A stretch of DNA of 64,000 nucleotides from Amphiscolops sp. MND2022 (taxonomy: Eukaryota): positions 36,084,001-36,148,000 of the forward strand of contig OZ076421.1 of assembly GCA_964187785.1 (NCBI GenBank), in the 5' to 3' direction. The notes under the pieces were generated by a model. The model did no database searches and was not told where the DNA came from. It was given only the letters and a program-made list of their open reading frames with translations. This document shows, one piece after another, positions 22,495-49,769 of this stretch. Within the stretch, counting starts at the first letter, position 1. Every line of letters begins with the position of its first letter. The translations under genes and the position numbers were made by a program.

Positions 22495-22654
22495 AAAATT
22501 GAAAGAGGAAGCGGAAACGCGAACAGGAGTTGCAAGAAATTTCGAGTGTTTGAGTTCGCGAGTGTTTGAGTCACAAAATTCCGTGTACTATATGTCAACT
22601 TGAGGACTCAACACATACTTCCAACAACTATTAAACAACACTGAACATGATAAT

Positions 22655-24801: not shown

Positions 24802-26522
24802 TGTCGCCCGGTTACCCTTGCGAGATGTCCGGAGTGCAGCACCGGTAAGCAGATCAGCTCTGCATCATCCTTCACAATGCCCGAAGACCCAATGCCAGCC
24901 TTATAGACTTTGGAAAACATTCAAACTAAACCATAAACTGAGAAATTTGTTCTCAAATAATTGCTCTCGTTGCTATTTCTTATGTTTGTTTAAGTTAAAC
25001 CGTTAGCTGATGTTGGTTTATGTGGACTTACGTCCTGTTTGATTTATATTTGACAACGGCATAACCGTTGAAAAAAAACAAAGAAAAAGACAAAAAGCTC
25101 AATAAACTAGTCATTAGTGACGATGTTACTAATCTGACCAGATCCAAATCTCTGTTTTGCTCCACAGTCATATTGTAGGAAATTGTGTTATACGTAACAG
25201 TAATTTCAACATATTAGTCAAGTTACATCATGATTATGCAAGAAGTGTATGAAATCAGTATGATGTTTTATTTTGAAAGCAGCATGACAAAACATCCGTC
25301 CAAAATAGTACTAAATTATGCTGCTTTATGCGGTTTGTATTGATCGGCATATACGGTATTTTTAGTAAAACAGCATTATATGGATATAAATACTGTTGCG
25401 TATGCTTTATACCGTATTATACTGGAATTGCTCAAAAACAGCATGATGATTTAACCCAGAAACAGCATATGCGGAAATCGCCCAGAAACGGCATGATGAG
25501 TTAGCTCAAAAACAGCATATGAAGGAAATTCAGGAAAACAGCATGATGTTCATACTCGAAAACAGTATAATGAACGCCAGCAGCATGACGCAGCTCAGTT
25601 AGATTGTATTATGCGGTTTTCATAAAACTGCATATGCAGGATTATATTGGAAAACAGCATAAATTGCATAATATTACACATTAATCCACCACTACATTGG
25701 TGCTATATTTAGACCTTCTAGGAACATTATGTCATAGTTTATTTTTAACTTCTGACCCTAGAAACACGACGTAATGATGACTTTGTAAAATTGCTGGTCA
25801 TATTACTGAAAATAACACCCAATGAAATCATTTTGTAAGGTACATTTGAAATCAGTTTTTCCCACGATTATTCCTACGAGATAACACACAGAAATCAGTC
25901 ACTCCAAAAGATAACTCTGAATTTGCATTTCAACAATTTCTTTGAAAGTTGTTTGAAGTTGTTTTCAACATGGGAAATAGAAGGAACAGACGTACACAGA
26001 GAAATGAGTCTCAGTCTCCAGAGAGAGATGGGAATATGTCAGAAACAAGCCTTCTACAAGATAATGCGACTTTAACTAATGTTTCTGCAAATGTTAATAA
26101 CGTTTTTGTCAGGAACTTAGGTAGCGAACTAACGGAACCATCACAAATCAGTAATGAGATAGAAATAATTTCTCAAAGTCTATCTGAACAAAACAACAAT
26201 AAGATGACACAGATTGAACATCAGCTGAATAGCAAATTTGAAGAAATACTTAAAGAAATCAGAGCAAACAAAAACTGTAACACAACAACTGATGAAGAGG
26301 ATGTTGAGAGTAGACAGCCAGGTCCTTCTAACTCAAAACCCAAGGGTCTCAGTAACAAACACGCATCAAACATGACAATAGAAAGAGATCAGAATGATCG
26401 GTTTTACTCGTCTGAAAAGAGTGAGTTAGGACAACCATATACTCCGATTGGAATTACAAATGAGACTCTGGATGAGACCACAATAATAAACGAAAACAGA
26501 CAGGAAAACGCCGATCATCACA
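24802..26522 (+). repeat. element B 5' LTR (1721 bp), includes first ~184 gag codons
   Basis: Near-identical to 43948-45700 apart from several indels; gag ATG at 25970. Confidence 0.92.
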
Positions 26523-26534
26523 TGGTGACAGGAC
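26523..26534 (+). promoter_or_regulatory. PBS of element B (tRNA-Leu-like, short)
   Basis: TGGTGACAGGAC directly after the LTR CA; resembles Leu(CAG)-type PBS TGGTGTCAGGAG; lies in-frame inside gag (MVTG). Confidence 0.6.
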
Positions 26535-27626
26535 CTACCAAGAACATCCTGAGACAAAGTTCTACTAATTCCCACACAACAAACCCAGTCGGACCACACG
26601 CAGAAACTCTCTTTGAACACCCTCAAACATCAGACCCTGTTAGCCAAATTGCCCTGGCAATCGAAAAACTAGCACACAAAAATCAAGAACCCTCAATCTT
26701 CCACTCGAAAAATACACTTACCTTCAACGGGAGACTAGAAAAAAACGAAAAGTTCGAATACTTTGAAGATCTTTTCCACACAACACTTAAAATGCAGCCA
26801 CATCTCACGGAAGAAATGAAAATAAACCACTTCCATGTCCACCTCAGAGGGCTAGCACTGAAAACATTTAAAAATATACAACGAACACCCACAACAACAC
26901 TCGAAGACATCTTGGTAGACTTCCGCAGAAAGTATGTCAAGCCCGAATCTAGTGCTTCAGCTAAACATTAAATTAACAAACTTATGTTCCAACCTGAAAA
27001 CCAGAAGCTACCTGACTTTCTTGAAGACTTACAAGAAAGTGCAGAAAAAGCATTTGGGGAAGCAGCGCCACAAATGACTGAAAGCCTCCTATACGCAAAA
27101 ATGCCTCCCCACCTAAAGAAATCTATCAACCATGCGTATCTTGAAAATGGTACATACGAACAAATCGTACGACACTTAGAACGCGAACTGGAGCTCAATG
27201 GACTTGAAGCAGACGAGTCTTTTGTCAAAACACAGATGACAGCAGTAAAACAACAAACAAACGTACAAAACACCAAATCTCAGCCACAAAACACAAAAAC
27301 AAAAACAAAAACCACAAACACAGTCCCCAATAACACGCTCCAGAACAACCAATGTCGCTATTGCAAGGAAGAAGGACATAGCACATAGCAAAAGAGTGCC
27401 CTAAATTTGCAAAACGACAAAAATTGGACAATGATCCAGATGCACCACGATGCGCCCATTGTAACACCACAGGTCATGAAGAACCCAATTGTTACTTTGG
27501 AGCCAACATGAAGAATCGCCCACCCAAGTGGACTCTCACAGAAACTCAACAAAAACTCTTTGATGAGTACAAAAAATCAAACGAACCCATCAACCCCCGA
27601 AACTCGAAACCTTCAACATCGAAGGA

Positions 27627-27633
27627 TTTAAAC
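27627..27633 (+). promoter_or_regulatory. -1 ribosomal frameshift slippery heptamer T TTA AAC at the gag stop
   Basis: GAT TTA AAC TAA has the X XXY YYZ register in the gag frame. Confidence 0.65.
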
Positions 27634-27636
27634 TAA

Positions 27637-30600
27637 TAAAGCCACGCCTTCAAACAACATCACCACAAAAACAACTCTCAGCAGATGACTGGCAGCATCC
27701 GCCGAGTCCAAAACCTATAAAAATTACAGTCTTCGATCACAACTCGACCAACAAAAACGACTCACATACTACAAACACACAAACTACCACACCCGATAAC
27801 CCCTCTGAGGACCTAAATGACTTACTCATGGATGCCCCAGATAACTACATACTCCGCCAAACCTTCGAACCTGAAATCGAGCAAGAAACAGAAAATCAAC
27901 ACCCCAATACTTCATACACTCAAGAAACACAAACAGAACACCCAAACACACAATTCACATCAACAACTCAAACTGAAAATGGAGCCATGTCAGGATTAAC
28001 AAAAACTCTTTTTAAAGCATCACCTGGGAAACAACCCCTCCTTGACAATGATGTTTTCAATCACCTAACTACAGATGAAGGCAACAACATCATGTACTTA
28101 AACCTCTCAACAAACCTAACCCTCAAAAAGAAACGTCATATGTATTATTTCCCCATGGATTTCGAAAAATTAACCCCGGATGGACTCATAGATACAGGCG
28201 CCCTCACCAGTGCCATTTCTGAAGCAGATCTCAATAAAATTAAACTACTATCAAACGAAGCAATCAAAGACACAGGTCCAGCACCAAACTTCCAAATCAT
28301 GGTGGCAAATGGTCTACTCGAACGCCCCATTGGAACTGTCCTACTTGAATTCGAGGTAGCAGACTTCCAATTTCAAGAAAATTTCATCGTCATGAAAACA
28401 CTACCCAATCCACTCATTGGATTGTGTTTTCTACAAAGACACAATGCCCTTTTTGATATTCGACAAGGAAGAATAACATTCCCATATTTGTAAATGCTGC
28501 TACGACCTGAACACACAACAAACACCCGAGTAGCAACACCTTTGTTGACTGAAACTACCTACACCCTGCAACCCGGAGAAGCTCTTGCAATCTCCAGCAA
28601 AATGCCCCATTTAATAGACCACAATGCAACAGGAATTGTGACTCCATCTTCACACATGGAGGAACACGAAAGCATTTTCATTACCTCCTCACTCAGTACG
28701 GTAAACAACAATGCAGTGGGTTATCAAGTGATTAACTTCTCAGATATGCTCTTCCTGTGGATACACACATGGCAGATTTCCGAGTACTAACCCCAGAACA
28801 AATCAAACACATCAAACCAGTTGACCCATCAATTCTTACCTTCATGATGCACCAACACATCGAAAATACGGATCTATACCTCAACCAACTGATGAAAACA
28901 AATCAATCGTCAGTCGAACAAGAAACGTACTGGTTCCATACACCTGAAAAACCCGGTGATCCGACCACATATACACCCATCCAACAAAGAATGTTTGTTG
29001 AACTCACAGAAGTTAAACAACTTGCACAACTAAACCCAAACGACAGCGAAGAATCAAGAAATTCTTCGACCATTTCTACTGGACCGACACCACTCTCAGC
29101 CCATTCGAAAAACAACACATTAAAGACATTCTTGTACAATATCACGATATCTTTGCCAGACATCGTTTTGATATTCGCACTAACATAGAATTTAAGGTTA
29201 AGTTAACGCCTAATGATGATAGACCAGCCTACAGCCAAAGTCTTCCAACGCCAATCAACCTCAATGATGATATAACTGTTGAACTGGCCCTACTCCATCG
29301 TTATGGCATCATCACGTCCTTACCTTTCTCTAAATATGCAAGCCCCACTTTGCTCAGCGAAAACTAAATGGACGTCTCCGCCTTTTGGTGGACCTTCGCA
29401 AAATCAACAATCTCATCACACAAGATTACGTAAACAACAACCACACAGTCAGCACTTTGTCGGACGCAGCACAGCACATGGCTGGGTAGAAGTTTTTTTG
29501 CAAACTCGATTGCTCCCAAGCATACCATTGTTTGCAGATGGCAGACTACCAGTCAATTCAGATGCTGGCATTTAATTTTGCAAGCCGAGCGTTTGCGTAC
29601 CGACGCCTTGCTCAAGGCTTAAGCCGCTCTCTGTCTGCTTTCTCATCCTTTATGAGAGAATACCTGGACAAAGCGATAAAAGCTGACCAATGCGCCCAAT
29701 ACGTTGATGACATTGGCATAGCCGCAAATGATTCAACCCAATTGTGCATCAACATCAAAACAGTCTTCGAATGCATTAGAAAAGCCGGCCTCAAACTCAC
29801 GATGGCTAAATGCCATTTTGGAGTCAAACAAGTCGACTTTTAGGACGAACAATCACCCCAGAAGGAATTTCCCCACAATCCGAAAAAGTCAAACAGTTTT
29901 TTCAGAAACTCAAATTTCCAAAATCTAAAGAAGATCTTCAAAGGTTTATTGGGTTTCTCAAATACTACAGAAACTACATTCCTCGGTTATCAGAAAAGCT
30001 TTCGCCTTTCTTCAAACTGCTCAAAGAAACTTCCCAGTTCTGTATACCAAATACAGTCCTAGACACTTTCAATGAACTAAACCAACAACTGGAAAAATCA
30101 TGCAGTCTTGCCCTCAAACAACCAAACAAAAACAAACAACTGATTCTAATGACTGATGCCAGTTTTACAGCAGCCGTCATGATTGAAGATGATCCTAACC
30201 AGAAACTTCAATCCAGAAGAAAAACCTATGCCCCAATCGCGTTTGGGTCAAAAACGTTCAATCCAACTCAAATCAAAATGTCCATCTACGCAAAAGAATT
30301 TTTAGCAATCTATTTTGCGTTTTCCGAATTTGGACACCTCATGTGGGGAAGTGTTTTCCCGTTATCGTCTTCACAGATAACCGTTCAGTAACACGCTTCT
30401 TCCAAACGAAAATAATACCACCACCTCTCTGGAATGCCTGCCACTTGGTCCTACAGTACAATTTCGTCATTGCGCACGTAGCAGGAGCCATGAACACAGC
30501 TGTTGATTTCCTTTCAAGAGCAGAAGTAAACCCGACCGAAAAACTCGAAATGAACATCCGAAATGATGTTACAACCAAAGCCATCGAAGTCAATATACAG

Positions 30601-32593
30601 TCCACAGGAGTTGCCGAGGAAGAATCTCTCTACTTTCTACCCGAAGAAGTTCCCTCAGAACAACAACTGTGGGAAGAGAAAGAATCACTTCGCAAAACAG
30701 CGAAGGAGGATACTCACAACGAACCAGAAAATGAAGTATCCGAACTCCAAAATTTCCATAAACCCACAGCTGGAACAATTGACTACAGAGAGTGTCACTT
30801 CAAAGACAATGCAAAAATACGTTTAGAACAAAACAACGATCCAGTTTTACGCAACCTTCGAGCAAAAATTCAAGGTGAACCATATGACGAAACTGCACTT
30901 ACACAAGAATATAGATATAAACACAACCTACAAAACATACCTCGTATCTAAATTCGACAGGACATCCTTATTAGAAGATACTACAATGACACGGGTATGA
31001 TCTCCCATTACCACATTCTCCTACCCCGACAACTCCTAGATGAATTCTTACATGCTCTTCATGGGCATAATGCAAACCACCCAGGTATCACAAAGATGAT
31101 TCAAGAAGCACGACAAAAGTACTATTACCCATGCATTGCCAAACACATCCGAACTTGGGTCACGAAATGTCAAATGTGCATACAAAACAAACGGATCAGC
31201 AATGACCTCCTCAAAACCGAACTACTCATTTGCCCGGAATGGGAGTTAGGTCCTGAGGATATATTGCAAATGGATGTTCTCCCGAACCTACCCTCAATTG
31301 GAGGTTATGACAATATCATCACAGCAATAGACGTGTTTTCACGATATCTGTTCGCATATCCAGTCACAAGAATCACTGTTGCAAGAGTTATCATGGACAT
31401 TTTATGCAAACACACATACCTACCCACAACAATCATCACAGATATGGGACCACAATTCAATTCTCAAAGTACAAAAGAAGTAGCTGCAGTTCTAAGTATA
31501 GAACTTAAACATGCCCCAACGAAACACGCCCAAACAATTGGACTGTTAGAACGCACTCATGCATCAGTCAAAGCACACGTAAAGGCCGCCACTGGAGAAT
31601 TCAGAAACAACTGGCATAAGTTTCTACCTTTGGCAGTCCTAAACCACAACACAACCTATCATGCAACACTCGGATGCGAACCCACAAGGGTCTTCCACGG
31701 ACGAAATCCGCACAATATACTAGATTTGAACCTTGGGTATAATCCAAATCCCCATTTCCAACCCTAAACCGAAGTAGCAGAAGAGATTCAAAGACGAATC
31801 GCACTACTTCACGATCAGACGAAGAAAAACATAATGCAATCTTACCTTAAATAAAAAGCTTACTATGACAGGAAAGCAAAAGCAGCACCTCTTACATCGG
31901 GGGATTATTGCTTTATCTTAAATCCGAAAGCCGACAAACAAGCGACCAAAATTCCTTTCAGAGAATTTTGTTGGGTAGGACCGTATAAGGTCGAGAAAGT
32001 CTTACCAAATAATAACTATATCGTCCGAAGATTGGGCACAAACAAAACCCAACTACTCCATCGTATTCGATTACGAATATACATCCCACAAGCGCCCTTA
32101 GCAGATAATTTCGTAAAGGAAACTGATTGGCAAAAAGAAGATACAGTCATTGCCCAAGATGATCTATATGCACAAACTTGGGACACTAATTTTGGATCGA
32201 GCCCTTTCGATTCTGAGCACGAAACCAATGATCAGCAAGAAGACATAGTGGAATATGAACCTGCTTCTCAACCCGAAATATACCGCCCTTCCTCCCCCGA
32301 AATTTCTCAAAACAGTGGGGGGATCCCAGCAGAACAACCTGCTGTGACTGATGAAGAGCCCCAAATAATCACAAAAGAACTTACAGAAATTGAAAATCAT
32401 GAGCCCATTCCAGAAACTTCAAGAAATCCAGAAATCTCACAAGATACCCCAACCCAAAATTCCCCAAAAACTCCCGAAAATAACCCAGAAATTGATGCAG
32501 AAAAAACAGAAAAATCAGTTAACAAAAGAGGTGAAAAGTACAACTTACGCCCAAACCCAAACCCTAACTACTCTGACTCATACAGATATTTAA
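27637..32593 (+). pseudogene. pol: element B pol (protease, dUTPase-like insert, RT, RNase H, integrase with GPY)
   Basis: LIDTGA 28191; YVDD 29700-29711; TDAS ~30152; HPG...C2 zinc domain ~31078; QMDV/TDMG/LERTH triad; WVGPY ~31978; KYNLRPNP end; many frameshifts and stops. Confidence 0.95.
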
Positions 32594-35500
32594 AAACGAA
32601 TCAAGAGACTCAAAGACTTTAACTAGATAACAGTCTCACTCGTTCTTCATTTTTTCCTTTTTCTTACCTCCAACTGAAACTGAAGGCCTAATTCTCTTTA
32701 TGAGAAAGATAAATAACTACCAACAAGACGTAATCAACCTGATTCGACAAAAACAACAAAACCAAACAAATAATAACAAAGGCACACATTATAAATTGAC
32801 AAAATACAATGAAAAGTATTGAGAAATGTTAGCACGTTCATTTATCACCAGAATCTTTCTTAGCCTTCTTGCCCTTGATTACTAGCTTCTTAGCCCCGCT
32901 GGAGCTACTGTCAGAAAGAAACAGGATATCTGCTACTACCCGAGGAACAGAAAGTGTCGGAGTCGAAAGTTTAGGACTAGAACCTTTGGGTTTACCACGT
33001 GATTCAGCTCCTCGAGCTCTGCCTGGAAAAGGAGTAGGTTGCACAAATTTACCACTTGAAAGGATAGGCCCTGGAGCGGATGTTTTGGGGCTAACCACAA
33101 CGGAAGTCCATAAAGCTTCTTCATCGGAGATGGTACATGTATAACGCGACTCCAGTTTGTTAAACAGTAGGCGCCGTCGAGAAGAACAGGAGGCAGTGAC
33201 ATCCAAACCGAAAACGTCGCGTCAGACAGTAAAGCATTGCCTTTACCAAGCAACGAGAAAACAGGTGAGATTGTGCGCGGATTTGAAAAAAGCCCAGACA
33301 CATTAGGAATCCCAGATAAAGAGGACTGGATACTTCGAACAGACGATCTAAATTCATCGGCATCAGAAGCTAGCCGAGGAAGTATCAAGGTGAAATGAGG
33401 CGGGAGTGAGGAATGATTGGCAAGGCTAAGACAACATAACTTGAAGGCAAAGAACAGGTTCTCACGGCAGTGCATTTCATAGTAACCAGACAAGAAATCC
33501 ACCCATTCTCTGTCATGTTCAATAATATTGGATCTAAACTGAGCGACAAAGGAGCGATATTCGCTGTAAATCAGAGGTTTTACATTACTGCTGATCCATT
33601 TACTCTCCACAAAGAAATCACAAAGCATCTCGCATTCACGAGAGTAATCTTCTTCCTCGCCATGCCGCACGATAGCTTCATCGAAGATGGAAAATCCTCG
33701 AACCAATTTGGATTTGCAAACTTTATGGCTCAATAACAACGCACAGATGTTTCTGCAGAAACACAATGCTTGCTCCACAAAATGGGTAGGTGTCGGAATG
33801 TCACTCTCAGCTACCAGATTAGCAAAATCTCTATTACGGAGAAAATCTGCAGCAGTCTTTAAAGGATGGCTATTTGATGAGAGATCAATTGACAGGAAAT
33901 TATCCCAATCAGACACTTATCCGAGAAACGAATCCGGAAGGATAGCTTGCAACTGTGAGTAAGTAAATGTTGCGAAAGCGCTGTAAACGCGGAAGATGTC
34001 TGGTGATGGCCCATTGACGTCTTTGAAGGCAGAATTATCTAAACACAAACAAATTGAAAATGGGGTAAGAAACCCGATGACAACCGCAAAAAGGAAAAAC
34101 TTACAATGCAAGAGAACATTCCGAATCAGGAACAACTTCGCAGGATACGTCTTGTCCTTGTAGATAGTCTCATAAATGCTTTTGGGCTGTAAAGAAACAA
34201 ACAGATATGAAAGGTGAAGCGAATAAAAGAAGGAGGAAAGATAAACGAAACTCACTTCTTTCATGTGGTAACGGAAGTCTTTGATCCTGTCTGCGAGCCG
34301 GAGGTGCAAAACAACGTGGGACCAGTTCATAGATAGCTGACCAAGGATAGTGGGAATATCTTCGTGACGAAATTCAAAACAGTGAATGGCCTGAAACAAA
34401 CCACATAATGATTGCTACTTGATTTGCACTGATGAAGACTGAAAATTATGATGCATCATGCTGAATTCTGAACACAGCATAGCATGGAACACAGCATACA
34501 GTATAACCTATGAGGATTATGCGGAAATCAGAACAAAATTGCATGACAAGAAAAACCCTATGCAGAAAAGTACAAAAAACAACATAAAACTAGTGCACAA
34601 CGTGCAGCGCAGTATAATGCAAAGTGAAATGAAATTATGCTGTTCTGAAGAAGAAACAGCATATTGGAATGATTATTATGCAGTTTTCAGAAGAACTTAC
34701 GCCCAAACCCAAACCCTAACTACTCTGACTCATACAGATATTAAAAAACGAATCAAGAGACTCAAAGACTTTAACTAGATAACAGTCTCACTCGTTCTTC
34801 ATTTTTTCCTTTTTCTTACCTCCAACTGAAACTGAAGGCCTAATTCTCTTTATGAGAAAGATAAATAACTACCAACCAGACGTAATCAACCTGATTTGAC
34901 AAAAACAACAAAACCAAAGAAATAATAACAAAGGCACACATCATAAATTGACAAAATACAATGAAAAGTATTGAGAAATGTTAGCACGTTCATTTATCAC
35001 CAGAATCTTTCTTAGCCTTCTTGCCCTTGATTACTAGCTTCTTAGCCCCGCTGGAGCTACTGTCAGAAAGAAACAGGACATCTGCTACTAACGGAGGAAC
35101 AGAAAGTGTCGGAGTCGAAAGTTTAGGACTAGAACCTTTGGGTTTACCACTTGATTCAGCTCCTCGAGCTCTGCCTGGAAAAGGAGTAGGTTGCACAAAT
35201 TTACCACTTGAAAGGATAGGCCCTGGAGCGGATGTTTTGGGGCTAACCACAACGGAAGTCCATAAAGCTTCTTCATCGGAGATGGTACATGTATAACGCG
35301 ACTCCAGTTTGTTAAACAGTAGGCGCCGTCGAGAAGAACAGGAGGCAGTGACATCCCAAACCGAAAACGTCGCGTCAGACAGTAAAGCATTGCCTTTACC
35401 AAGCAACGAGAAAACAGGTGAGATTGTGCGCGGATTTGAAAAAAGCCCAGACACATTAGGAATCCCAGATAAAGAGGACTGGATACATCGAACAGACGAT

Positions 35501-38500
35501 CTAAATTCATCGGCATCAGAAGCTAGCCGAGGAAGTATCAAGGTGAAATGAGGCGGGAGTGAGGAATGATTGGCAAGGCTAAGACAACATAACTTGAAGG
35601 CAAAGAACAGGTTCTCACGGCAGTGCATTTCATAGTAACCAGACAAGAAATCCACCCATTCTCTGTCATGTTCAATAACATTGGATCTAAACTGAGCGAC
35701 AAAGGAGCGATATTCGCTGTAAATCAGAGGTTTTACATTACTGCTGATCCATTTACTCTCCACAAAGAAATCACAAAGCATCTCGCATTCACGAGAGTAA
35801 TCTTCTTCCTCGCCATGCCGCACGATAGCTTCATCTAAGATGGAAAATCCTCGAACCAATTTGGATTTGCAAACTTTATGGCTCAATAACAACGCACAGA
35901 TGTTTCTGCAGAAACACAATGCTTGCTCCACAAAATGGGTAGGTGTCGGAATGTCACTCTCAGCTACCAGATTAGCAAAATCTCTATTACGGAGAAAATC
36001 TGCAGCAGTCTTTAAAGGATGGCTATTTGATGAGAGATCAATTGACAGGAAATGATCCCAATCAGACACTTATCCGAGAAACGAATCCGGAAGGATAGCT
36101 TGCAACTGTGAGTAAGTAAATGTTGCGAAAGCGCTGTAAACGCGGAAGATGTCTGGTGATGGCCCATTGACGTCTTTGAAGGCAGAATTATCTAAACACA
36201 AACAAATTGAAAATGGGGTAAGAAACCCGATGACAACCGCAAAAAGGAAAAACTTACAATGCAAGAGAACATTCCGAATCAGGAACAACTTCGCAGGATA
36301 CGTCTTGTCCTTGTAGATAGTCTCATAAATGCTTTTGGGCTGTAAAGAAACAAACAGATATGAAAGGTGAAGCGAATAAAAGAAGGAGGAAAGATAAACG
36401 AAACTCACTTCTTTCATGTGGTAACGGAAGTCTTTGATCCTGTCTGCGAGCCGGAGGTGCAAAACAACGTGGGACCAGTTCATAGATAGCTGACCAAGGA
36501 TAGTGGGAATATCTTCGTGACGAAATTCAAAACTGTGAATGGCCTGAAACAAACCACATAATGATTGCTACTTGATTTGCACTGATGAAGACTGAAAATT
36601 ATGATGCATCATGCTGAATTCTGAACACAGCATAGCATGGAACACAGCATACAGTATAACCTATGAGGATTATGCGGAAATCAGAACAAAATTGCATGAC
36701 AAGAAAAACCCTATGCAGAAAAGTACAAAAAACAACATAAAACTAGTGCACAACGTGCAGCGCAGTATAATGCAAAGTGAAATGAAATTATGCTGTTCTG
36801 AAGAAGAAACAGCATATTGGAATGATTATTATGCAGTTTTCAGAAGAACTTACGCCCAAACCCAAACCCTAACTACTCTGACTCATACAGATATTAAAAA
36901 ATGAATCAAGAGACTCAAAGACTTTAACTAGATAACAGTCTCACTCGTTCTTCATTTTTTCCTTTTTCTTACCTCCAACTGAAACTGAAGGCCTAATTCT
37001 CTTTATGAGAAAGATAAATAACTACCAACCAGACGTAATCAACCTGATTTGACAAAAACAACAAAACCAAAGAAATAATAACAAAGGCACACATCATAAA
37101 TTGACAAAATACAATGAAAAGTATTGAGAAATGTTAGCACGTTCATTTATCACCAGAATCTTTCTTAGCCTTCTTGCCCTTGATTACTAGCTTCTTAGCC
37201 CCGCTGGAGCTACTGTCAGAAAGAAACAGGACATCTGCTACTACCCGAGGAACAGAAAGTGTCGGAGTCGAAAGTTTAGGACTAGAACCTTTGGGTTTAC
37301 CACTTGATTCAGCTCCTCGAGCTCTGCCTGGAAAAGGAGTAGGTTGCACAAATTTACCACTTGAAAGGATAGGCCCTGGAGCGGATGTTTTGGTGCTAAC
37401 CACAACGGAAGTCCATAAAGCTTCTTCATCGGAGATGGTACATGTATAACGCGACTCCAGTTTGTTAAACAGTAGGCGCCGTCGAGAAGAACAGGAGGCA
37501 GTGACATCCCAAACCGAAAACGTCGCGTCAGACAGTAAAGCATTGCCTTTACAAAGCAACGAGAAAACAGGTGAGATTGTGCGCGGATTTGAAAAAAGCC
37601 CAGACACATTAGGAATCCCAGATAAAGAGGACTGGATACTTCGAACAGACGATCTAAATTCATCGGCATCAGAAGCTAGCCGAGGAAGTATCAAGGTGAA
37701 ATGAGGCGGGAGTGAGGAATGATTGGCAAGGCTAAGACAACGTAACTTGAAGGCAAAGAACAGGTTCTCACGGCAGTGCATTTCATAGTAACCAGACAAG
37801 AAATCCACCCATTCTCTATCATGTTCAATAACATTGGATCTAAACTGAGCGACAAAGGAGCGATATTCGCTGTAAATCAGAGGTTTTACATTACTGCTGA
37901 TCCATTTACTCTCCACAAAGAAATCACAAAGTATCTCGCATTCACGAGAGTAATCTTCTTCCTCGCCATGCCGCACGATAGCTTCATCTAAGATGGAAAA
38001 TCCTCGAACCAATTTGGATTTGCAAACTTTATGGCTCAATAACAACGCACAGATGTTTCTGCAGAAACACAATGCTTGCTCCACAAAATGGGTAGGTGTC
38101 GGAATGTCACTCTCAGCTACCAGATTAGCAAAATCTCTATTACGGAGAAAATCTGCAGCAGTCTTTAAAGGATGGCTAGTTGATGAGAGATCAATTGACA
38201 GGAAATTATCCCAATCAGACAGTTATCCGAGAAACGAATCCGGAAGGATAGCTTGCAACTGTGAGTAAGTAAATGTTGCGAAAGCGCTGTAAACGCGGAA
38301 GATGTCTGGTGATGGCCCATTGACGTCTTTGAAGGCAGAATTATCTAAACACAAACAAATTGAAAATGGGGTAAGAAACCCGATGACAACCGCAAAAAGG
38401 AAAAACTTACAAAGCAAGAGAACATTCCGAATCAGGAACAACTTCGCAGGATACGTCTTGTCCTTGTAGATAGTCTCATAAATGCTTTTGGGCTGTAAAG

Positions 38501-39001
38501 AAACAAACAGATATGAAAGGTGAAGCGAATAAAAGAAGGAGGAAAGATAAACGAAACTCACTTCTTTCATGTGGTAACGGAAGTCTTTGATCCTGTCTGC
38601 GAGCCGGAGATGCAAAACAACGTGGGACCAGTTCATAGATAGCTGACCAAGGATAGTGGGGATATCTTCGTGACGAAATTCAAAACTGTGAATGGCCTGA
38701 AACAAACCACATAATGATTGCTACTTGATTTGCACTGATGAAAACTGAAAATTATGATGCATCATGCTGAATTCTGAACACAGCATAGCACGGAACACAG
38801 CATACAGTATAACCTATGAGGATTATGCGGAAATCAGAACAAAATTGCATGACAAGAAAAACCCTATGCAGAAAAGTACAAAAAACAACATAAAACTAGT
38901 GCACAACGTGCAGCGCAGTATAATGCAAAGTGAAATGAAATTATGCTGTTCTGAAGAAGAAACAGCATATTGGAATGATTATTATGCAGTTTTCAGAAGA
39001 A
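32544..39001. repeat. tandem triplication of a 2152-2153-bp unit (32544-34695, 34696-36848, 36849-39001)
   Basis: Same ORFs recur at offsets 2152 and 2153; junction ttcagaagAActtacgccc has 2-bp microhomology; copies differ by scattered SNPs and a 1-bp indel. Confidence 0.97.
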
Positions 39002-41530
39002 AACAGCATGCCAAATGAAATTATGCTGTTCTGAAGAAGAAACAGCATATTGGAATGATTTTATGCAGTTTTTAGAAGAAAACAGCATGCCAAATGAAAT
39101 TATGCTGTTCTGAAGAAGAAACAGCATATTGGAATGATTTTATGCAGTTTTCAGAAGCAAACAGCATGCCAAATGAAATTATGCCGTTCTGAAGAAGAAA
39201 CAGCATATTGGAATGATTTTATGCAGTTTTCAGAAGAAAACAGCATGCCAAATGAAATTATGCCGTTCTGAAGAAGAAACAGCATATTGGAATGCTTTTA
39301 TGCAGTTTTCAGAAGAAAACAGCATGTCAAATGAAATTATGCTGTTCTGAAGAAGAAACAGCAGTTTGGAATGATTTCATGCATTTTTAGAAGAAAACAG
39401 CAAAACAAATGAAATTATACAGTTTTGGAAAAGAAACAGCAAACAGGATAGATCTTATATAGTTTTCAGAAGAAAACAGCATATTGAACGAGGTTATGTT
39501 GATTTGGAGAAGAAAACACATACCGGAATAATTTAATGCAGAAAAAAATTACACCGAACGAATTTATGCTGTTTAGACATTGAACAGTAAAGTGAAATAT
39601 TTGTAAATTACTTTTCGCAACTCAGGAAGGTTGCTCATCCAAGCGGAATCCAGAGCAGTGCGCAACTTCATGAGGAAGAAATGTAAAACGCTATGAAGAT
39701 CATATCTGTCAAGAATCTTGATAGCCGATCCTCCTGCAAAGACTTTGTACAAGTCTTCATAACCGAAAGTCGCACAAGGTGACGGAGCTTGGTGTAATTC
39801 AGTTTGTAAGGTCTTGACAGTCCGCGCATCAAAACCAAGCAGAGAATAGATGCTAACGGGGGTACTCGTTATAGCCAAGAAACAACCAGCAACTTCAAGG
39901 ACCTTTTTAGCTTCCATCAGGCTGGGGGTGGAGCTTCCATCCCTGTAAGTAGAAGGTGATTGAGGACGTTCCCAGACCAAAACGACACAGACAGTTTGGT
40001 ACATTCAGGTGTAGTTTGAAGCTGCAAAGAACAGCTTCCAGATTGACTGATGGCCTGGGCAGTGAATCGCAGCAATTCCCGGAACATATAGACCATTACT
40101 CCCTAGGAAAAGGAAAGAATGAGTTTAGATGACAAATGGTAGATAATAGACAATTAGTAAAACAATACTTACAAAGACACGTTCAGGACACCAATTGAAC
40201 TGGGGAACTTTTGAAGGCCCACAAATCTCTGACCCGAGACTACTCCAAAGTGAACGCACGACGTCCAATCCTCCGCCATGTTGCAATCCGGTCATTAAAA
40301 TGCGGATCTGTGAACAAATGACTGCAGAAGGATCAAGTATATCTACATCGGAGGGGAGTTCGTACTGTCCAGGTAGCAAATAACACTCTCCCAAAGTAGG
40401 AGCAATTGGGTAAGTCATTCCGGCCTTCTCCCGTGCTTCATCCAGAGATGGACCGACTAGCTCTTGCTCATTTGTCCCGTACAAAGGAAGTCCCGGGGTT
40501 TCCATAAGGAGCCGATGTTCCCGGACTAAGGGAGCTTCAGTTCCATAGTGGGATAGGATCTCCAATGCGCCTTTGGTTTTCAACGACAACTCAATGCTGC
40601 ACACTCTGCATCTCCACTTGTGTGGGTTGGCTTCAGCGTCCATGGGGGCTGTAACGAAGAATTTGAAAACAGGATGTTTCCTGAACATCTGAACGTTTAA
40701 CTGCAATCGTGGTTTGGAACGCCCAACTGTTCCAGATTGTCCTTGAAAGTTGGCCCCTGTAACAGTCTTGTCTCCGGCCGGCGCTGAAAGTCTTTCACGA
40801 CGCTGGATGCGCCGGGTGGCTGGGTTGCGCTTCGTTTTCGTTACTGCGACTTGCGATGAAGACGGTGGTTCCGGGATTCTGTCTTCGGACAATCGGCTGG
40901 ACGATGACTGTTGCTGTGATACCGGCGCTCTGGTAACGGTTTCTTGCAGTTGAGTACTGAGAGATGCAGTTGCTTCAGAGACTAAAACTTGAAAGCGCCG
41001 CTCTAGGGCCTCCAAATCAGAACTAGTTACGAAATTCATCGTAGGATCTGTGGAGGTCGCTGTGCGGGTAATTGACCTATCAACCTCTAGCCCTGTAGGG
41101 GCAGTAACAACAGGGGTTTGAGCTCTGTTCAGGAATGCAGTGAATGGGGAATGAACCTGTTGTTTTCCTCCGGAAGGGTTATAACTCGGCGATCCTGGAG
41201 TTGGCTCAACCTCAGTGGTCTCATTCCTGGGAGTCAAACGTTGGGTTTCGTCTCTAGTCGAAGCATCTCCAGTGACGTCGACCATATCGCTATCGTGAGG
41301 TACCCGAAAGGTGGACAATCCAAAAGGAGGGAAAGCGGTTTGGGCGAATGAAACGGAACTCCTGTCAAAAGAATGTGCAATTCCGTCTAGGTCTGCTTGC
41401 CTGTGAGACTCTAGATTAGTTTGAAGTTGCTCGGGAGTTGATTGGCGAGGCGGGTTTGAGAACGCTTCAAGAGGAGCCAAATCTCTAGTTGGAGTACATT
41501 GTTCGGCGGAAACGTGGAGTTCGAAGGAGT
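37143..41530 (-). pseudogene. element B antisense spliced accessory gene: BED-type zinc finger plus hAT-transposase-like body, about 1090 aa reconstructed
   Basis: Exons 41530-40173, 40102-39612, 38696-38562, 38492-38411, 38344-37143 with GT-AG introns of 70, 915, 69 and 66 nt; KWRCRVC...EILSHYGTE finger; one frameshift and one in-frame TAA; last three exons repeated in the triplication. Confidence 0.8.
38930..39540. repeat. 79-bp tandem array of paired ATGCTGTT...AACAGCAT inverted motifs in intron 2 of the accessory gene
   Basis: ttatgctgtt at 38941, 39021, 39100 and onward at 79-bp steps; about 6 good and 1-2 degenerate units, each two ~40-bp subunits. Confidence 0.95.
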
Positions 41531-42159
41531 CTGAAACACAAAAAGAAATGAAAATACAGGAAACCAAATTCGACCAGAAACGGAAGTTGTCTGATCAAAA
41601 TTAGTGAGGGCCTGATCAACCTTCACTTCGAATTTAGAGTACTCGAAAAAATCTGTTCACCACCCAAAGCAGGAAATCTGAAAATGAACCTAGTTTTGGT
41701 GGAGAAAACGAAATTTGTGTTGTTCTCTAGTCAGATAATCTACAAAAGACCTGAGTGCAAAACAAATTGAAAAGTAGTCCAAATTATTTTTGTCAGAGAT
41801 ATCAGAAATATTTGGAAATACAAACCTCGTATTGGAGTTCCTTTCTCTGCGTTTTCTCTGGACATCGTTCCCTCCAAATGAATGAACAACTAGCAAGAGG
41901 ATCTTGATACAATTAGTCGGTTGTCAAACACCAGCTAAACTGAAAAAAACTGCTAATCCGTCGAAATTTAACTAACAAAGGCGGTCAACCGATAAAGCTG
42001 AGTAAATTTGAAAAAAGACTGAAGGATAGACTGGCAAAGGAAAAGAAAACAAGAAGAACGGTGGGTACTGTAATGACTATCACTTGATACTGAAAACAAA
42101 GCGAGAAACGATGAAGGCGTGGCGTATAACAGAAAGGCAATAAAGCAAATAACCAACGT

Positions 42160-42520
42160 CAAAAGTATGCTGTTCGCGGATCAGCTCAATTCTGATTGGT
42201 CGAAAATGTGCTGAGCTTGGCCATATCTGCCAGTATGACTAAGCTGTATGAGCGCATTTTAATTACGTGGAAATCAAACGAGACGTACAACATAAACATC
42301 TCATTATGCGGAAATGTGAAAGAAACAGCATAATCTGCTCAAGCAGTGAATGAATGAGAGCAATAGATGACCCGCACTGTTATGCTGTAAACTCGAAATA
42401 ACAGCATAATGTTGTTATGCGGAAATGGATACAAAACTGTATAATGAACTAATATTGCTAGCAATGAGACTTGTGATGAAGTATGATGTTTTCTGTGAAC
42501 AGCATTTGATGTATATCACT
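42160..42520. promoter_or_regulatory. putative bidirectional promoter region of the accessory module (CCAAT box, AACAGCAT cluster)
   Basis: ATTGG at 42195-42199; about 6 AACAGCAT-like motifs; lies between the two divergent genes. Confidence 0.4.
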
Positions 42521-43027
42521 ACTAATACTGCAGTTCCAAAATATTATACATTGATTAATACACGAGTACAGATTCACACTTTGGAAGAAGTGACTCATAT
42601 AGTAAGGTGTGAAAACTTTCTCATGATAAACCTGGATGAATTATTGATGTAATTTATTTTGATTGTGAGTAATTAAAATTAGTCACCCTAAAATGGAAAG
42701 TTAGAAAACGAGACATGAAGGAAGGCTCAAGGTGATTCTCAAAACTGATAAATGTTTATTTGAAATTGAGAATTTTAGTGATGCTATTACTTGAATTTAC
42801 CCTGATAAATTACCCGAGGAAACCGGGAAAAGAGATTTTTGAAATGTGTTTTGGAGTAATTTACGTGGAACTCATAGTCTTACGGAAATCTAGAAGATCT
42901 CACCATTCTGGTCTTAACTTTCGCGATATCAGTTAACTCGTATTGTTATAATTCTTCAACCCCGTTCAATTTTCAAACTTAGAGTTTGTAAACCAGCCTA
43001 AAAACTCGTGAAACCTACTGAAGTGAA

Positions 43028-43994
43028 ATGTATGCAACTCCGATAACAAAGGCTAACAGTACTGGAGGACGAATGCAGTCCGACGCAGACCTAGATCTGA
43101 TAAACATATCAAGCAGTTCAGACGAGGGATTTGTAGTGGAACCTTTGACTTTAACTGAAATGGAAGATAGGTTCAGAGTCGCCCCTTCATCCATTGCGAG
43201 CATAACCGTTGCCTTCATAGGATCTACGGAAGCTTCTTTGTTCGTGACCAACTCAATGGAAACAGAATCACGAGGATGCATAAATACAAGGGGGACAACT
43301 ATCGAGTCCAAATTGATGGATTTGTTGAACGATATACGTGACATTTCGCCAGTGACATTCATCGACAGCTCAGAAGAAGAGATGGACCCATTTCCAGAAG
43401 CAAACTTTGCGAATGTGTAAAGAAATGCATATGGGCGTCCCACACAAAGAGTATCTCCTATCCCTAAGACCCCAAGTTGCAAACCCAGGACAACAACCAG
43501 AAGCAACACGTGACATCAATCCTCCGACGATACCTAGTCAGGTGAGTGCTTTCACAGCATATGTTGCCCCGCAACAAAGGACAGCTGACTTTAATGCACG
43601 ACCAGTTCAACAAGCCGCATACCTGCCGTTGCCTGTGCCATTCTACCCCAATGGGTGGAACAATCAAGGTTTTGGGCCGGTTAACAACAATGCACACTCA
43701 ATCCCAGCAAACAACGCCTTTCCCCAGAAGAGACCAATACTCCAGATGAATCCACCCGTTATGCCCGAAGTTGCGGAATACTGCTCCAGTTGCATGAAAA
43801 CATACGATCACATTGCAGTTGAAACCCTGACTAGCTACATTGCCTGGTCAGAATACCCTGAAGAAACTATTCGAGATCGGAATGTGAGGTCGAGAGCTTT
43901 TTTGGACGGGTTTGGAGCAGCCCTGATCTGTTTTAAAAATGCTGGACTGTCGCCCGGTTACCCTTGCGAGACGTCCGGAGTGCAGCACCGGTAA
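43028..43994 (+). pseudogene. element B sense accessory ORF3: acidic protein with SIM-like segments and conserved RxRAF(L/I)(D/E)G C-terminus
   Basis: DLDLINISSSSDE and PVTFIDSSEEE; frameshift near 43410; C-terminal RSRAFLDGFG matches RKRAFIEGMQ in element C; stop lies inside the 3' LTR. Confidence 0.65.
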
Positions 43995-45700
43995 GCAGAT
44001 CAGCTCTGCATCATCCTTCACAATGCCCGAAGACCCAATGCCAGCCTTATAGACTTTGGAAAACATTCAAATTAAACCAAAAACTGAGAAATTTGTTCTC
44101 AAATAATTGCTCTCGTTGCTATTTCTTATGTTTGTTTAAGTTAAACCGTTAGCTGATGTTGGTTTATGTGGACTTACGACCTGTTTGATTTATATTTGAC
44201 AACGGCATAACCGTTGAAAAAAGACAAAGAAAAAGACAAAAAGCTCAATAAACTAGTCATTAGTGACGATGTTACTAATATGACCAGATCCAAATCTCTG
44301 TTTTGTTCCACCGTCATATTGTGGAAAATTGTGTTATACATCATGATTATGCAAGAAGTGTATGAAATCAGTATGATGTTTTATTTTGAAAGCAGCATGA
44401 CAAAACATCCGTCCAAAATAGTACTAAATTATGCTGCTTTATGCGGTTTGTATTGATTGGCATATACGGTATTTTTAGTAAAACAGCATAATATGGATAT
44501 ATATACTGTTGCTTATGCTTTATACCGTATTATACTGGAATTGCTCAAAAACAGCATGATGATTTAACCCAGAAACAGCATACGCGGAAATCACCCAAAA
44601 ACAGCATGATGAGTTAGCTCAAAAACAGCAGATGAAGGAAATTCAGGAAAACAGCATGATGTTCATACTCGAAAACAGTATAATGAACGCCAGCAGCACG
44701 ATGCAGCTCAGTTATACTGTATTATGCGGTTTTCATAAAACTGCATATGCAGGATTATATTGGAAAAAAGCATAAATTGCATAATAATACACATTAATCC
44801 GCCACTACATTGGTGCTATATTTAGAACTTCTAGGAACATGATGTCATAGTTTATTTTTAACTTCTGACCCTAGAAACATGACGTAATGATGATTTTGTA
44901 AAATTGCTGGTCATGTTACTAAAAATAACACCCAATGAAATCATTATGTAAGGTACACTTGAAATCAGTTTTTCCCACGATCATTCCTACGAGATAACAC
45001 ACAGAAATCAGTCACTCCAAACCAGAGAAACGCGTTCCACCAATTCCAAACCTTGCAGTTTCTTTCATTGTAAAGATAACTCTGAATTTTCATTTCAACA
45101 ATATCTTTGAAATTCAAAGATTTCTTCAACTAGAAGTTGTTTTCAACATGGGAAATAGAAGGAACAGACGTACACGGAGAAATGAGTCTCAGTCTCCAGA
45201 GAGAGATGAGAATATGTCAGCAACAAGCCTTCTACAAGGTAATGCGACTTTAACTAATGATTCTGAAAATGTTAATACCGTTTTTGACAGGAACTTAGGT
45301 AGCGAACTAACGGAACCATCACAAATCAGTAATGAGATAGAAAGAATTTCTCAAAGGCTATCTGAACAAAACAGCAACAAGATGACACAGATTGAACATC
45401 AGCTGAATAGCAAATTTGAAGAAATACTTAAAGAAATCAGAGCAAACAAAAACTGTAACACAACAACTGATGAAGATGATGTTGAGAGTAGACAGCCAGG
45501 TCCTTCTAACTCAAAACCCAAGGGTCTCAGGAACAAACACGCATCAAACATGACAATAGAAAGAGATCAGGATGATCGGTTTTACTCGTCTGAAATGAGT
45601 GAATTAAGACAACCATATACTCCGATTGGAATTACAGATGAGACTCTGGATGAGACCATAATAATAAACTAAAACAGACAGGAAAACGCCGATCATCACA
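43948..45700 (+). repeat. element B 3' LTR (1753 bp)
   Basis: Homologous to 24802-26522; followed by TSD ATAAT; retains gag 5' ORF 45148-45672. Confidence 0.92.
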
Positions 45701-47509
45701 ATAATGGGCATTTTTTCAAAAATTTCCGGATATCGACATGACTCTATAAAGCTAATTTCCTGTAGTAGACTTCTATCGACAAAACTCTATGTTTTGAGTA
45801 TGCTTAATCTGTAAAACGTTATTGAGTTGTAAGCTTTCTCCTACACATAAATTAATAACGGCTGGAAACTAACAAGTTTACTATTCAAGCATTAGACTAA
45901 TTCTTTTTTGTCATATTTGTCAAAATTCAGTCTAGTCCAAACTCGTTTGGAAAATTAACTATACCAAAATAGCATTATGGTAAGATTCCGTTCACTGTTG
46001 AAAAGTATACATGAATAACATAAGAAAAAAACGCCATTCATTCTTTGAATACGTTTATTGATTCGATTTTTCGTTTTCAAGTTTTTATGATCAAAATTTA
46101 AAAAAAACTGAAAAATTCCGTTGTATTTTAAAATTTTGATTACAACTGACTTGAAAAGTGAACAATTATTGTTTCAAAGAATGAATGTTTTTTTTCAAAA
46201 AAAGAAAGGTTCCTTTTTTATTATTCGTTCCAGCAGTGAACATTATCTAATATAAATGCTATTTTGCTATTTTGCAATTTTACATATTGAAGAGATTTGA
46301 TTGAGTCCAAACGTTTTCAACATGAGGATTCCAATTCTAAATATTGAGTCAACTTAAAATCTCGAATCAAAACTCCAAATTTTTTGGTTTCTTTTCAATG
46401 TATTTCGAATTCTTTAGGCGATTTTGAACTGCTTCGAACTTTGAGACACTTTGTAAAGAGGATGACATCCATAATTCAAGATAACGAAACGAGACTACTC
46501 TCTTTGTTGCAAACATCGTCTGTTGAGAATTTGAAAATCTTTCAAGTTGCTCTCTCACTGGAACAACAAATACAAAGGGAACATCTAAACAAAAGACTCT
46601 CAAACACTCCGCAGTCAATCTACGCATCAACTGTCCTGAAAAAAAAACAAAGAGAACTTCAATTATTCAAAATCGGTTTTTGCAGTTTTTTGAGAGAACT
46701 ATTTAGCAACCAAACAATGGCGATACTTTCTGACTATGCAAAATTTCTGTCAATATTTTGTCACTTTTTGTACTTTTGTCATCTAAAAACTATGCAGTTA
46801 AGCTTTTTTAGAAAAGATTCTGGATGTTTTTTTTTCTCTCATGCTGATTGTTCTTGCAAAGTAACTAGAGAATCTTTCAAGCATATGTTTTGACAGAATA
46901 CACTTACAAATTCCCAGTCGTTGATTTTCATCTGAGCATTAACCTCGAAAGTACACCGAGAAGTCTAAAAATTGACAAAATTTTTGCAAAATTTTTTCAA
47001 AGCTTCTTTTCTCCACAAATAATAGCTGCAGCTCCAATCGGTTTTCTGTTCCTGAAAGCCCTTTACCTAAGCTTTCAAATGCACATTAGTTAGGTCCCGA
47101 GCTGCGCCGGGCCTTTCAAATGTCGGTTGAACTCATAACTGAAGCTTCATTGAAAAAAAACTTCTATGTTGGCAAACTGTGTTACTAGAGTGGGACAGTA
47201 AATTAGCAAACAGTTGCTCAGTTATTGAGAAAAAACGAATTTTCTGAAATGTACTTTTTTGCAATTTTTCACTTTTTTTCAGTTATTTTTTTGCCAGTGG
47301 CTCGGAAAATCTATATTGACACAAATAACAATTCACACCAGATAGTCCAATAGATTGCCGATAAGAACAACAATTTTTCGTTTTCCTCTATGCTTTTTGC
47401 GTGTCGTAATTTATTATTGATTGCCAAAAAATTGCAGTCGTCATTTGAGGACGAAATCGCTGTCGAGGTTAAGATTAACAAAATTGTTTCAATGTTTATT
47501 ATTTTGCTG

Positions 47510-48435
47510 TGTAAGATGTAAAGTCCGTATGTTTCCTTAGATCACAAGCGGACATAGAGTCCTTTTTTGAAAATTTCGTATTTGCATTTTTCCACAAATT
47601 TCCTACCCCGCTCTCATTTGAGGACGTACACGGCTCAACGCTCTGTTGGATCAAAGGGAAATTTTCCACCATGTTTTGTATTTCAGGTATTATTCTCTCG
47701 CTAATAGCACAACTAATGGCCCTACTAATCTGAGTTTGCATGAAGTCCATCATTGTCTCCATTTCCCGAGACGTTCTAGCATTCATCTCGCCCGAAAGCG
47801 CACTAATCGATTCCATTAGTCTCTCTTCTCTAACGGGCTCATTTTTTTACTGATATCTCTGATTTCATTTTCTTGGGAAGAATTTTCTCTAATCGTGAAA
47901 TCGTGAAATGGCTGAAAGTCTCGCTGTCCACCTGGGACATTGATGAGACTATCCAACTCTGTCTATGGAGTTGGAATTTCCATCCCCTAACATCACGTCC
48001 ATGTTGCCGTAATCGGACAACATGTCTAGTTCCCTCGACTTCCTGGCCTTAGCCTTTTGTTTTCTTGTGGAAGGCATAAAATGTTTCTACAGGAGGAAGT
48101 ATTTAAATTGTTCCTGTAACCGCGTATAGTAGGAGAGCTTTACAAAGAAACTTGTATAAATGCAAGGTAACTGAATAACAGTGGTTCAACTAAAATTGTG
48201 TCTTACAAAGACCCGGTCAGGGTTTATATACCCAAGCGAGCATGACACGCAATTTTCTAACGGTCATGTTACCAAAAATAGTTATTGACTATAACATTAC
48301 CTCATTCTAAATATAGGAAATGCAGTCACAGGTGTTTTGCGGAAGCGACGAGATCAAAGGCGCGTCACGGTCGTAAAGGGAGGGGGGTGACGCATGTCCT
48401 AATATGGTCTAGCAACGCATTCTTATATATCAACA
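47510..48435 (-). repeat. element C 3' LTR (926 bp)
   Basis: Aligns with 61505-62423 with visibly more differences than the B LTR pair; TATATAAA on minus near 48225; gag-like 5' ORF fragments. Confidence 0.85.
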
Positions 48436-49757: not shown

Positions 49758-49769
49758 GTTCCTATTTTA

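What the first reader, a model, noticed from the sequence alone, without database searches (positions are those of the whole stretch)
38930..39540. AACAGCAT motif is amplified only in non-coding parts of element B, including a palindromic 79-bp array
Seen: about 10 copies at roughly 25-bp spacing in each LTR (25279-25665 and the matching 3' LTR region), about 6 in the inter-gene spacer (42160-42520), and a tandem array in intron 2 where ATGCTGTT and AACAGCAT face each other about 10 bp apart. Knowledge: hAT BED domains bind short subterminal repeats, often as dimers. Inference: these are cognate sites for the element's own BED protein. I did not see an equivalent cluster in element C.
Basis: partly seen in the sequence, partly recalled or inferred. 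Interest (0 to 1): 0.7.

Follow-up and report, generated by a model that had tools for sequence, protein, structure and literature searches.

The report
Retrotransposon with private paired DNA sites
A jumping gene carries dozens of copies of a precisely spaced, two-part DNA signal in its control regions and introns, together with an extra zinc-finger gene that may read the signal to switch the element on; the binding itself is untested.

Summary
In detail: 36 exact AACAGCAT against 2.67 expected, 35 inside element B (Ty3/Gypsy, 24802-45700), none in its coding regions or in element C. The real unit is larger: a 26-bp inverted pair, ATnMnGnn-N10-AACAGCAT. The 10-bp spacing holds in the LTRs, the inter-gene spacer and the intron outside the array (15 of 17 sites; 0 of 3001 shuffles), while the central bases are random and the halves do not covary. 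That fits a dimeric protein on double-stranded DNA, not an RNA hairpin or a drifting satellite. The 79-bp array is two such pairs per unit. B carries a spliced antisense gene with a BED-like finger and weak hAT-transposase signals; it is broken in this copy. The layout matches plant VANC and TnpA systems. Self-recognition is inferred (about 0.5): no binding data, no relatives' DNA could be fetched, and element C has a homologous gene but no motif. A host dimeric factor is the main rival.

The parts
24802..26522 (+). 5' LTR of element B (TG...CA, 1721 bp); contains the dyad cluster and the start of the gag frame
   Evidence: Self-BLAST with the 3' LTR, target-site duplication ATAAT on both sides, TGG directly after the LTR
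25260..25660 (.). LTR dyad cluster: 9 sites of 12 bits or more plus one weaker; six form a diverged 24/26-bp tandem. Lies just upstream of a TATA-like sequence at 25704, so probably the U3 enhancer (inferred)
25946..32622 (+). gag-pol in Ty3/Gypsy order (capsid-like, zinc knuckle, protease, RNase H, integrase), broken into several frames; no dyad of 9 bits or more with the final matrix
   Evidence: Pfam; ORFs; scan
32542..39001 (.). Tandem triplication of 2153 bp (pol end, last accessory exons, intron sites, first 1.5 array subunits); right breakpoint inside the array; copies differ 0.7-1.1%
37143..41865 (-). Spliced antisense accessory gene: disordered N-terminus, BED-like finger (about 40530-40610), helical region, probable degenerate hAT-transposase body. 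Broken here at three places: fourth zinc-ligand codon 40530-40532, a frameshift near 39915-39950, a premature stop at 38223-38225
   Evidence: Four GT-AG introns verified, first intron unresolved; homologues; atlas lead
38697..39611 (-). 915-nt intron (the other three verified introns are 66-70 nt) that holds the array and four further dyads
38761..38891 (.). Dispersed intron dyads outside the array (38761, 38778, 38825, 38866)
38933..39482 (.). 79-bp array, 7.0 copies; each unit is two 39/40-bp subunits, each with one ATGC(T/A)GTT-N10-AACAGCAT pair; degenerate copies trail to about 39573
42306..42505 (.). Four dyads (42306, 42382, 42417, 42480) in the spacer between the two divergent accessory frames; probable bidirectional promoter (inferred)
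43022..43994 (+). Second accessory reading-frame region (two overlapping frames), no family match
43948..45700 (+). 3' LTR, 3.6% diverged from the 5' LTR (61 of 1688 aligned bases); 9 dyads at 44373-44746

Best explanation
The motif is half of a 26-bp inverted-repeat site (ATnMnGnn-N10-AACAGCAT) bound on double-stranded DNA by a dimeric protein. SHOWN: the sites exist, keep a fixed spacing, and sit only at the LTR, the spacer between the accessory genes and the one long intron. INFERRED: the binder is the product of the element's antisense gene, a hAT-transposase-derived protein that kept its BED-like finger and lost catalysis. Two fingers of a dimer would read the two halves. Intact copies would supply it in trans to switch on, or keep unsilenced, the LTR and the accessory promoter of family members, including its own gene (positive feedback). 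Sites multiplied by local tandem duplication (24/26-bp in the LTR, 39/40 then 79 bp in the intron), as described for VANC targets. This copy cannot make the protein and would be a passive target. Transcriptional activation or relief of chromatin silencing is more likely than DNA demethylation, because the sign of host CpG methylation is weak.
For: Fixed spacing outside the array: A at -18 and G at -13 together in 15 of 17 anchors, 9 of 11 after collapsing local tandem copies; 0 of 3001 shuffles reach the observed match at any of 41 spacers. A matrix from only the 6 spacer and intron sites finds 9 sites in each LTR and 13 in the array at 12 bits or more, and none outside B. Between regions the central 6 bases are 26% identical, the halves 62% and 84% (75 pairs; sites were chosen by motif match, so half-site figures are partly circular). 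Halves do not covary. The gene is a conserved family: 177 representatives at E<=0.001 for the finger exon, 42 proteins for the last exon. All 85 pattern matches among 182 fetched proteins have the same C-x2-C-x16-H-x5-H spacing, with subfamily-specific residues before the helix. zf-BED in 4 of 46. An intron-free relative, P0132 (23% identity to 40700-39603, E 2e-12), has hAT-type neighbours: DUF4371 and ZBED5/ZBED1 RNase-like, top score 0.91. VANC21 binds a short motif in introns, intergenic and terminal non-coding regions, amplified as tandem repeats (PMC5735166, passages). Transposases and their derivatives act as sequence-specific activators of their own copies (bioRxiv 10.64898/2026.08.24.746577, abstract and sections 4 and 8).
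Against: No binding evidence of any kind. Element C has a homologous gene (52241-52525, 67% to P0113) but no enriched word or spaced pair in 3502 non-coding bases (best corrected E 1.3, against 1e-7 for B). No DNA of other family members was available, so motif and finger could not be shown to change together. hAT ancestry is weak: the atlas hit shares 162 of 256 features, below the 170 typical of true family members, and the family is on 18% of that cluster; the last exon gave no hAT signal in Pfam (0 of 40), PDB sequences or the atlas. The best VIA-align rows for the finger are RNA-binding matrin-type fingers (TUT4, Z 4.7, rmsd 3.2, 64 aligned). Hermes BED binds adjacent 4-bp half-sites, unlike an 18-bp centre-to-centre pair. 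In the matrix scan, spacers of 13 scored as many sites as 10, and 7 scored some; I read these as 3-base register shifts of the same sites, and the anchored test peaks at 10 (4.76 of 8, against 3.82 at 7 and 2.41 at 13).
Confidence: 0.5

Rival explanations
1. The pairs are sites for a host dimeric transcription factor that the element recruits to its LTR, accessory promoter and an intronic enhancer. The accessory protein does something else.
For: Everything shown about the DNA fits any dimeric binder. C has the gene without a motif. LTR enhancers commonly gather host-factor sites by tandem duplication (own knowledge).
Against: No site of 12 bits or more in about 43 kb outside B with the final matrix; two borderline sites near 12 at 23590 and 52223. 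That sample is mostly repeats, so it is a weak test. Loading the intron of the accessory gene most heavily is the VANC pattern.
Confidence: 0.27
2. The binder is element-encoded but is the product of the second accessory frame (43022-43994) or of gag-pol, not the finger protein.
For: B has a second accessory region next to the spacer sites. Its positional counterpart in C cannot be aligned (best E 1.8), so it differs between the family with the motif and the one without.
Against: No family match and no recognisable DNA-binding domain.
Confidence: 0.08
3. Neutral history: one ancestral 26-bp sequence was duplicated and moved about, and the array is an intronic minisatellite with no function.
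For: Many sites are tandem copies. Retand elements carry family-specific arrays of unknown function (PMC11963269, passages).
Against: Drift would erode halves and centre alike; the centre and flanks are near background (26-32%) while spacing and halves persist across three regions. The signal survives collapsing tandem copies.
Confidence: 0.08
4. The pairs act as RNA hairpins in the element's transcripts, bound by a matrin-like finger (a Rev-like export or processing signal).
For: The array folds as repeated hairpins (z -7.1). The finger's closest VIA-align rows are RNA-binding fingers.
Against: Outside the array only 4.81 of 8 positions pair, no more than with shuffled partners (4.95); most 30-base sites fold weakly. 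A strict 10-base loop is not expected of a hairpin (inference).
Confidence: 0.07

Closest known systems
VANC anti-silencing proteins and motifs of Arabidopsis VANDAL transposons (PMC5735166; passages)
   Same: Short motif concentrated in terminal non-coding regions, intergenic regions and introns; amplified as tandem repeats; an accessory gene on the same element.
   Different: VANDALs are Mutator-like DNA transposons of plants. The VANC21 motif is a single 9-mer, not a spaced pair. VANC was traced to a MAIN-related cellular protein (PMC13547354, passage). VANC removes DNA methylation; here the methylation signal is weak and binding is untested.
Spm TnpA and transposase-derived regulators (bioRxiv 10.64898/2026.08.24.746577; abstract, passages, sections 4 and 8)
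   Same: A transposase-derived, non-catalytic DNA-binding protein proposed to activate its own family through dense motif clusters.
   Different: There the regulator stays in a DNA transposon or is domesticated by the host. The main text has 0 occurrences of 'LTR', 'Gypsy' or 'retrotransposon'. Here it would have moved into a retrotransposon.
Retand (Tat) Gypsy elements of flowering plants with antisense TRP28 ORFs and tandem arrays (PMC11963269; abstract and passages)
   Same: Ty3/Gypsy, long pol-3'LTR region, antisense ORF proposed as DNA-binding regulator, family-specific arrays of unknown function.
   Different: Different protein (no PF04195 match). In the passages read, no shared site linking arrays with the LTR is described. 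Here the gene is spliced and the array is intronic.
hAT BED domain on subterminal repeats, Hermes (PMC10368747; passages)
   Same: CCHH/CCHC finger; two fingers bind an imperfect palindrome cooperatively.
   Different: Hermes half-sites are AAG(T/C), adjacent, and serve transpososome assembly at transposon ends. Here halves are 6-8 bp, 10 bp apart, in an LTR element.

Membership tests
Ty3/Gypsy LTR retrotransposon | LTRs with TG...CA ends and a 4-6 bp target-site duplication | tested here: met
   24802-26522 and 43948-45700; ATAAT both sides
Ty3/Gypsy LTR retrotransposon | Protease, RT/RNase H, then integrase | tested here: met
   Pfam order on the + strand; the RT stretch itself was not scanned in B but aligns to C's RT region
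BED zinc finger (PF02892) | CCHH or CCHC ligands with an aromatic residue before the first Cys | tested here: met
   For the family: 85 pattern matches among 182 proteins; ligand present in 99 of 113 homologues at the fourth position. This copy lacks that ligand.
BED zinc finger (PF02892) | Profile or fold match above threshold | tested here: inconclusive
   4 of 46 members, best E 1.6e-4; P0061 and P0062 score 16 and 14.2 bits against a cut-off of 20.6; Foldseek E 0.85; window protein itself no match
hAT transposase-derived protein | RNase H-like body after the finger | tested here: inconclusive
   Atlas lead only, through P0132; no Pfam match for P0132
hAT transposase-derived protein | C-terminal hAT dimerisation domain (PF05699) | tested here: inconclusive
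   No Pfam match in 40 members; model too poor to judge (pLDDT 43)
Active hAT transposase | Conserved DDE catalytic triad | tested here: inconclusive
   No Asp at the place where I expect the first catalytic strand in the window or four aligned homologues; the placement rests on a recalled hAT motif, not on an alignment to a transposase
VANC/TnpA-type self-targeting regulator system | Family-specific motif concentrated in non-coding regions, partly in tandem | tested here: met
   within this window only
VANC/TnpA-type self-targeting regulator system | Element-encoded protein binds the motif | not testable with these tools
   Needs EMSA, SELEX or ChIP
VANC/TnpA-type self-targeting regulator system | Protein and motif diversify together across families | tested here: inconclusive
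   Finger residues differ by subfamily; C has no motif; no related loci retrieved
VANC/TnpA-type self-targeting regulator system | Loss of silencing marks or activation in trans | not testable with these tools
   CpG observed/expected 0.76-0.94; 10 of 31 LTR transitions at CpG: weak sign of host methylation
VANC protein family / Retand TRP28 | Sequence homology to VANC or PF04195 | tested here: not met
   No such Pfam match

The most novel reading that the evidence does not exclude
A Ty3/Gypsy lineage, probably of an animal, captured an intron-containing hAT transposase gene, lost its catalytic activity and kept it in antisense as a family-specific dimeric activator or anti-silencing factor. 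Each subfamily's finger would read its own spaced palindrome, amplified in the LTR, accessory promoter and intron. This would be a DNA-transposon enzyme turned into the trans-regulator of a retrotransposon, and a VANC-like system outside plants.
Probability: 0.35. Interest if true: 0.85.

Novelty: new variant of a known kind. Interest (0 to 1): 0.62.

Why it matters
Sequence-specific self-activation by a transposon's own protein is established for plant DNA transposons. For LTR elements with antisense accessory genes it has only been proposed, and the function of their internal arrays is called unknown (PMC11963269). This element gives a defined 26-bp candidate site, a candidate binder and a large natural family with variable finger residues, so the question is directly testable. 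My searches found no description of a hAT/BED-derived accessory gene in a Gypsy element; the library lacks most subscription papers and I read no supplements, so this is not proof of absence.

Tried and rejected
No genome is held for this window, so no genome-wide motif count was possible. No sequencing run was listed. No related locus was confirmed in metagenome contigs, genome contigs or viral contigs. The search for longer homologues covered only 1202-3430 residues and found none, which is weak evidence. P0132 has one near-length relative only. Two-copy complex prediction of residues 128-200 of the finger exon gave no verdict. The last-exon model had mean pLDDT 43 and its fold search is uninformative. 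No solved structure matched either alignment by sequence. VIA-align listed no BED or hAT chain among its 50 rows for the finger exon. Substitutions between the two LTRs (3 of 138 half-site columns, 58 of 1550 others) are too few and arose after insertion, so they say nothing on selection. A separate 7-bp-spacer class was considered and dropped: those sites fit the 10-bp register with A at -18 and G at -13. Our own earlier findings held nothing for this genome or sequence. The host is unidentified: literature searches under a recalled guess of an acoel host found nothing relevant, and no tool result supports that guess.

Full report
SETTING. The window is eukaryotic: it has GT-AG introns and a PAN-domain fragment at 4632-4880 (E 2.4e-4, just under the cut-off). 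An animal host is likely but not shown. Element B is a Ty3/Gypsy retrotransposon from 24802 to 45700, with 1.7-kb LTRs, TG...CA ends and the target-site duplication ATAAT. The LTRs differ at 61 of 1688 aligned bases. gag-pol is on the + strand and broken. Between pol and the 3' LTR lie a spliced antisense gene (41865-37143), a 1.1-kb spacer and a sense reading-frame region (43022-43994). A 2153-bp block is triplicated (32542-39001) and its right breakpoint falls inside the array; the copies differ by 0.7-1.1%, so the event is younger than the insertion.

THE OBSERVATION. AACAGCAT occurs 36 times against 2.67 expected. 35 are in B, all in non-coding DNA; none is in element C. The array is 38933-39482, period 79, 7.0 copies. 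It lies in a 915-nt intron; the three other verified introns are 66-70 nt.

WHAT THE MOTIF REALLY IS. Lining up the 17 plus-strand matches (up to one mismatch) outside the array shows a second constrained box upstream: A at -18 in 16 of 17 and G at -13 in 16 of 17. This is the reverse complement of the motif's own fixed positions, 10 bp away. Both bases are present in 15 of 17, and in 9 of 11 after I kept one site per local tandem family. No shuffle of the upstream 48 bases (0 of 3001, best of 41 spacers) reached the observed match in either set. A matrix built from the half-sites of 6 spacer and intron sites finds 9 sites in each LTR and 13 in the array at 12 bits or more, with none outside B; at 9 bits it also finds 10 outside B. 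Trained on the 11 LTR sites it finds 4 spacer, 2 intron and 13 array sites and 2 outside B. Among 16 non-array sites, pairs from different regions share 26% of the central six bases, 62% of the left half and 84% of the right half (site choice makes the half-site figures partly circular). In the array each 79-bp unit is two pairs; 13 of 14 subunits keep the 10-bp spacer while the linkers vary. One caveat: the half-site has a 3-base periodicity, so a spacer of 13 scores as many sites as 10 in the matrix scan; the anchored test favours 10.

DNA OR RNA. The array folds into hairpins as RNA (z -7.1), as any palindromic array would. Outside the array the halves pair at 4.81 of 8 positions against 4.95 with shuffled partners, with or without G-U pairs. 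Each half tracks the consensus on its own. A fixed spacer with independent halves and a free centre is what a protein dimer on double-stranded DNA selects for (established knowledge, e.g. spaced palindromes of dimeric factors; recalled).

WHERE THE SITES ARE. The LTR cluster (25260-25660) ends about 45 bp before a TATA-like sequence at 25704. The spacer sites lie 440-640 bp upstream of the antisense gene and about 520 bp upstream of the sense frame. The rest are in the long intron. Promoter roles are inferred; no RNA data were available.

THE CANDIDATE BINDER. The finger exon has 177 relatives at E<=0.001 among cluster representatives; the 10 that I looked up are all unnamed ENA proteins, some in clusters of 11 and 27 members. 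The last exon has 42 relatives. The finger has constant ligand spacing and subfamily-specific residues before its helix. The model is confident (pLDDT 85), but no solved structure matches at E<=0.001; the top Foldseek row is the ZBED1 BED domain at E 0.85 and the top VIA-align rows are matrin-type fingers at Z below 5. Pfam zf-BED matches 4 of 46 members weakly. P0132, which runs on past the finger without an intron, falls among hAT-type clusters in the atlas; this is a lead, not a proof. The last exon gave no family signal. In this copy the gene is broken at three places: the fourth zinc ligand, present in 99 of 113 homologues; a frameshift in the following exon; and a stop in the last exon shared by all three duplicated copies.

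ELEMENT C. C (47509-62424, minus strand, LTRs 7.0% apart) has a decayed homologous gene with different finger residues. Its 3502 non-coding bases show no enriched 6-8-mer and no spaced pair. Self-recognition predicts some motif there. C is older and interrupted, and a short motif could be missed, but this counts against the reading.

MECHANISM. Shown: a family-restricted (within this window), spacing-constrained dyad at three non-coding locations. Inferred: dimeric DNA binding (likely, about 0.85); the binder is the antisense protein (about 0.5 overall); it activates or unsilences in trans. CpG observed/expected is 0.76-0.94 and 10 of 31 LTR transitions are at CpG, so DNA demethylation of the plant type is not indicated.

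COMPARISON. It works like VANC (PMC5735166, passages) and TnpA (bioRxiv 10.64898/2026.08.24.746577, abstract, passages, sections 4 and 8) but is not a member of either protein family. Its layout resembles Retand elements (PMC11963269, abstract and passages), for which a regulatory role of the antisense ORF is proposed but untested. PMC13547354 (passages) lists other accessory proteins of plant LTR elements; PMC10368747 (passages) gives the BED precedent. PMC7264820 and PMC8365987 were seen as search listings only. No supplements were read; repeat-library entries or supplements could describe this family. Earlier notes of this scan report similar motif loads in fungal Gypsy elements, and one found them also in relatives lacking the accessory gene (e1-7572074). 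These are unchecked and only made me more cautious.

VERDICT. Real and better structured than first reported. New variant of a known kind; interest 0.62; the link between gene and site is the open question.

Noticed in passing
window 25970-26522 and 61504-61964: In both B and C the gag frame starts inside the LTR (about 180 codons in B), so each 3' LTR carries a gag fragment.
   Followed up: partly
window 32542-39001 and 60830-64000: Both elements carry young internal tandem duplications: 2153 bp three times in B, with a 2-base overlap at the junction, and 1594 bp in C at 99.7% identity. An assembly artefact is not excluded for C.
   Followed up: partly
window 43022-43994 and 49124-49770: B and C each have a second, sense-oriented accessory region with an acidic start just before the 3' LTR; they do not align and have no family match.
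   Followed up: partly
window 6512-14696: An 8-kb element-like stretch bounded by 196-bp direct repeats starting TG (93% identical), with a 473-codon minus-strand frame of no family and internal 180-bp and about 725-bp repeats; no gag-pol recognised.
   Followed up: no
window 1628-2587, 21889-22498, 49763-50210: A small element with 52-bp terminal inverted repeats has related pieces elsewhere, one inserted in element C's spacer.
   Followed up: no
window 15581-15682 and 16854-16913: Two near-perfect palindromes of 102 and 60 bp with no spacer.
   Followed up: no
window 4632-5677: Probable host gene fragments with a PAN-like domain, followed by a 15-bp tandem array of 11.4 copies.
   Followed up: partly
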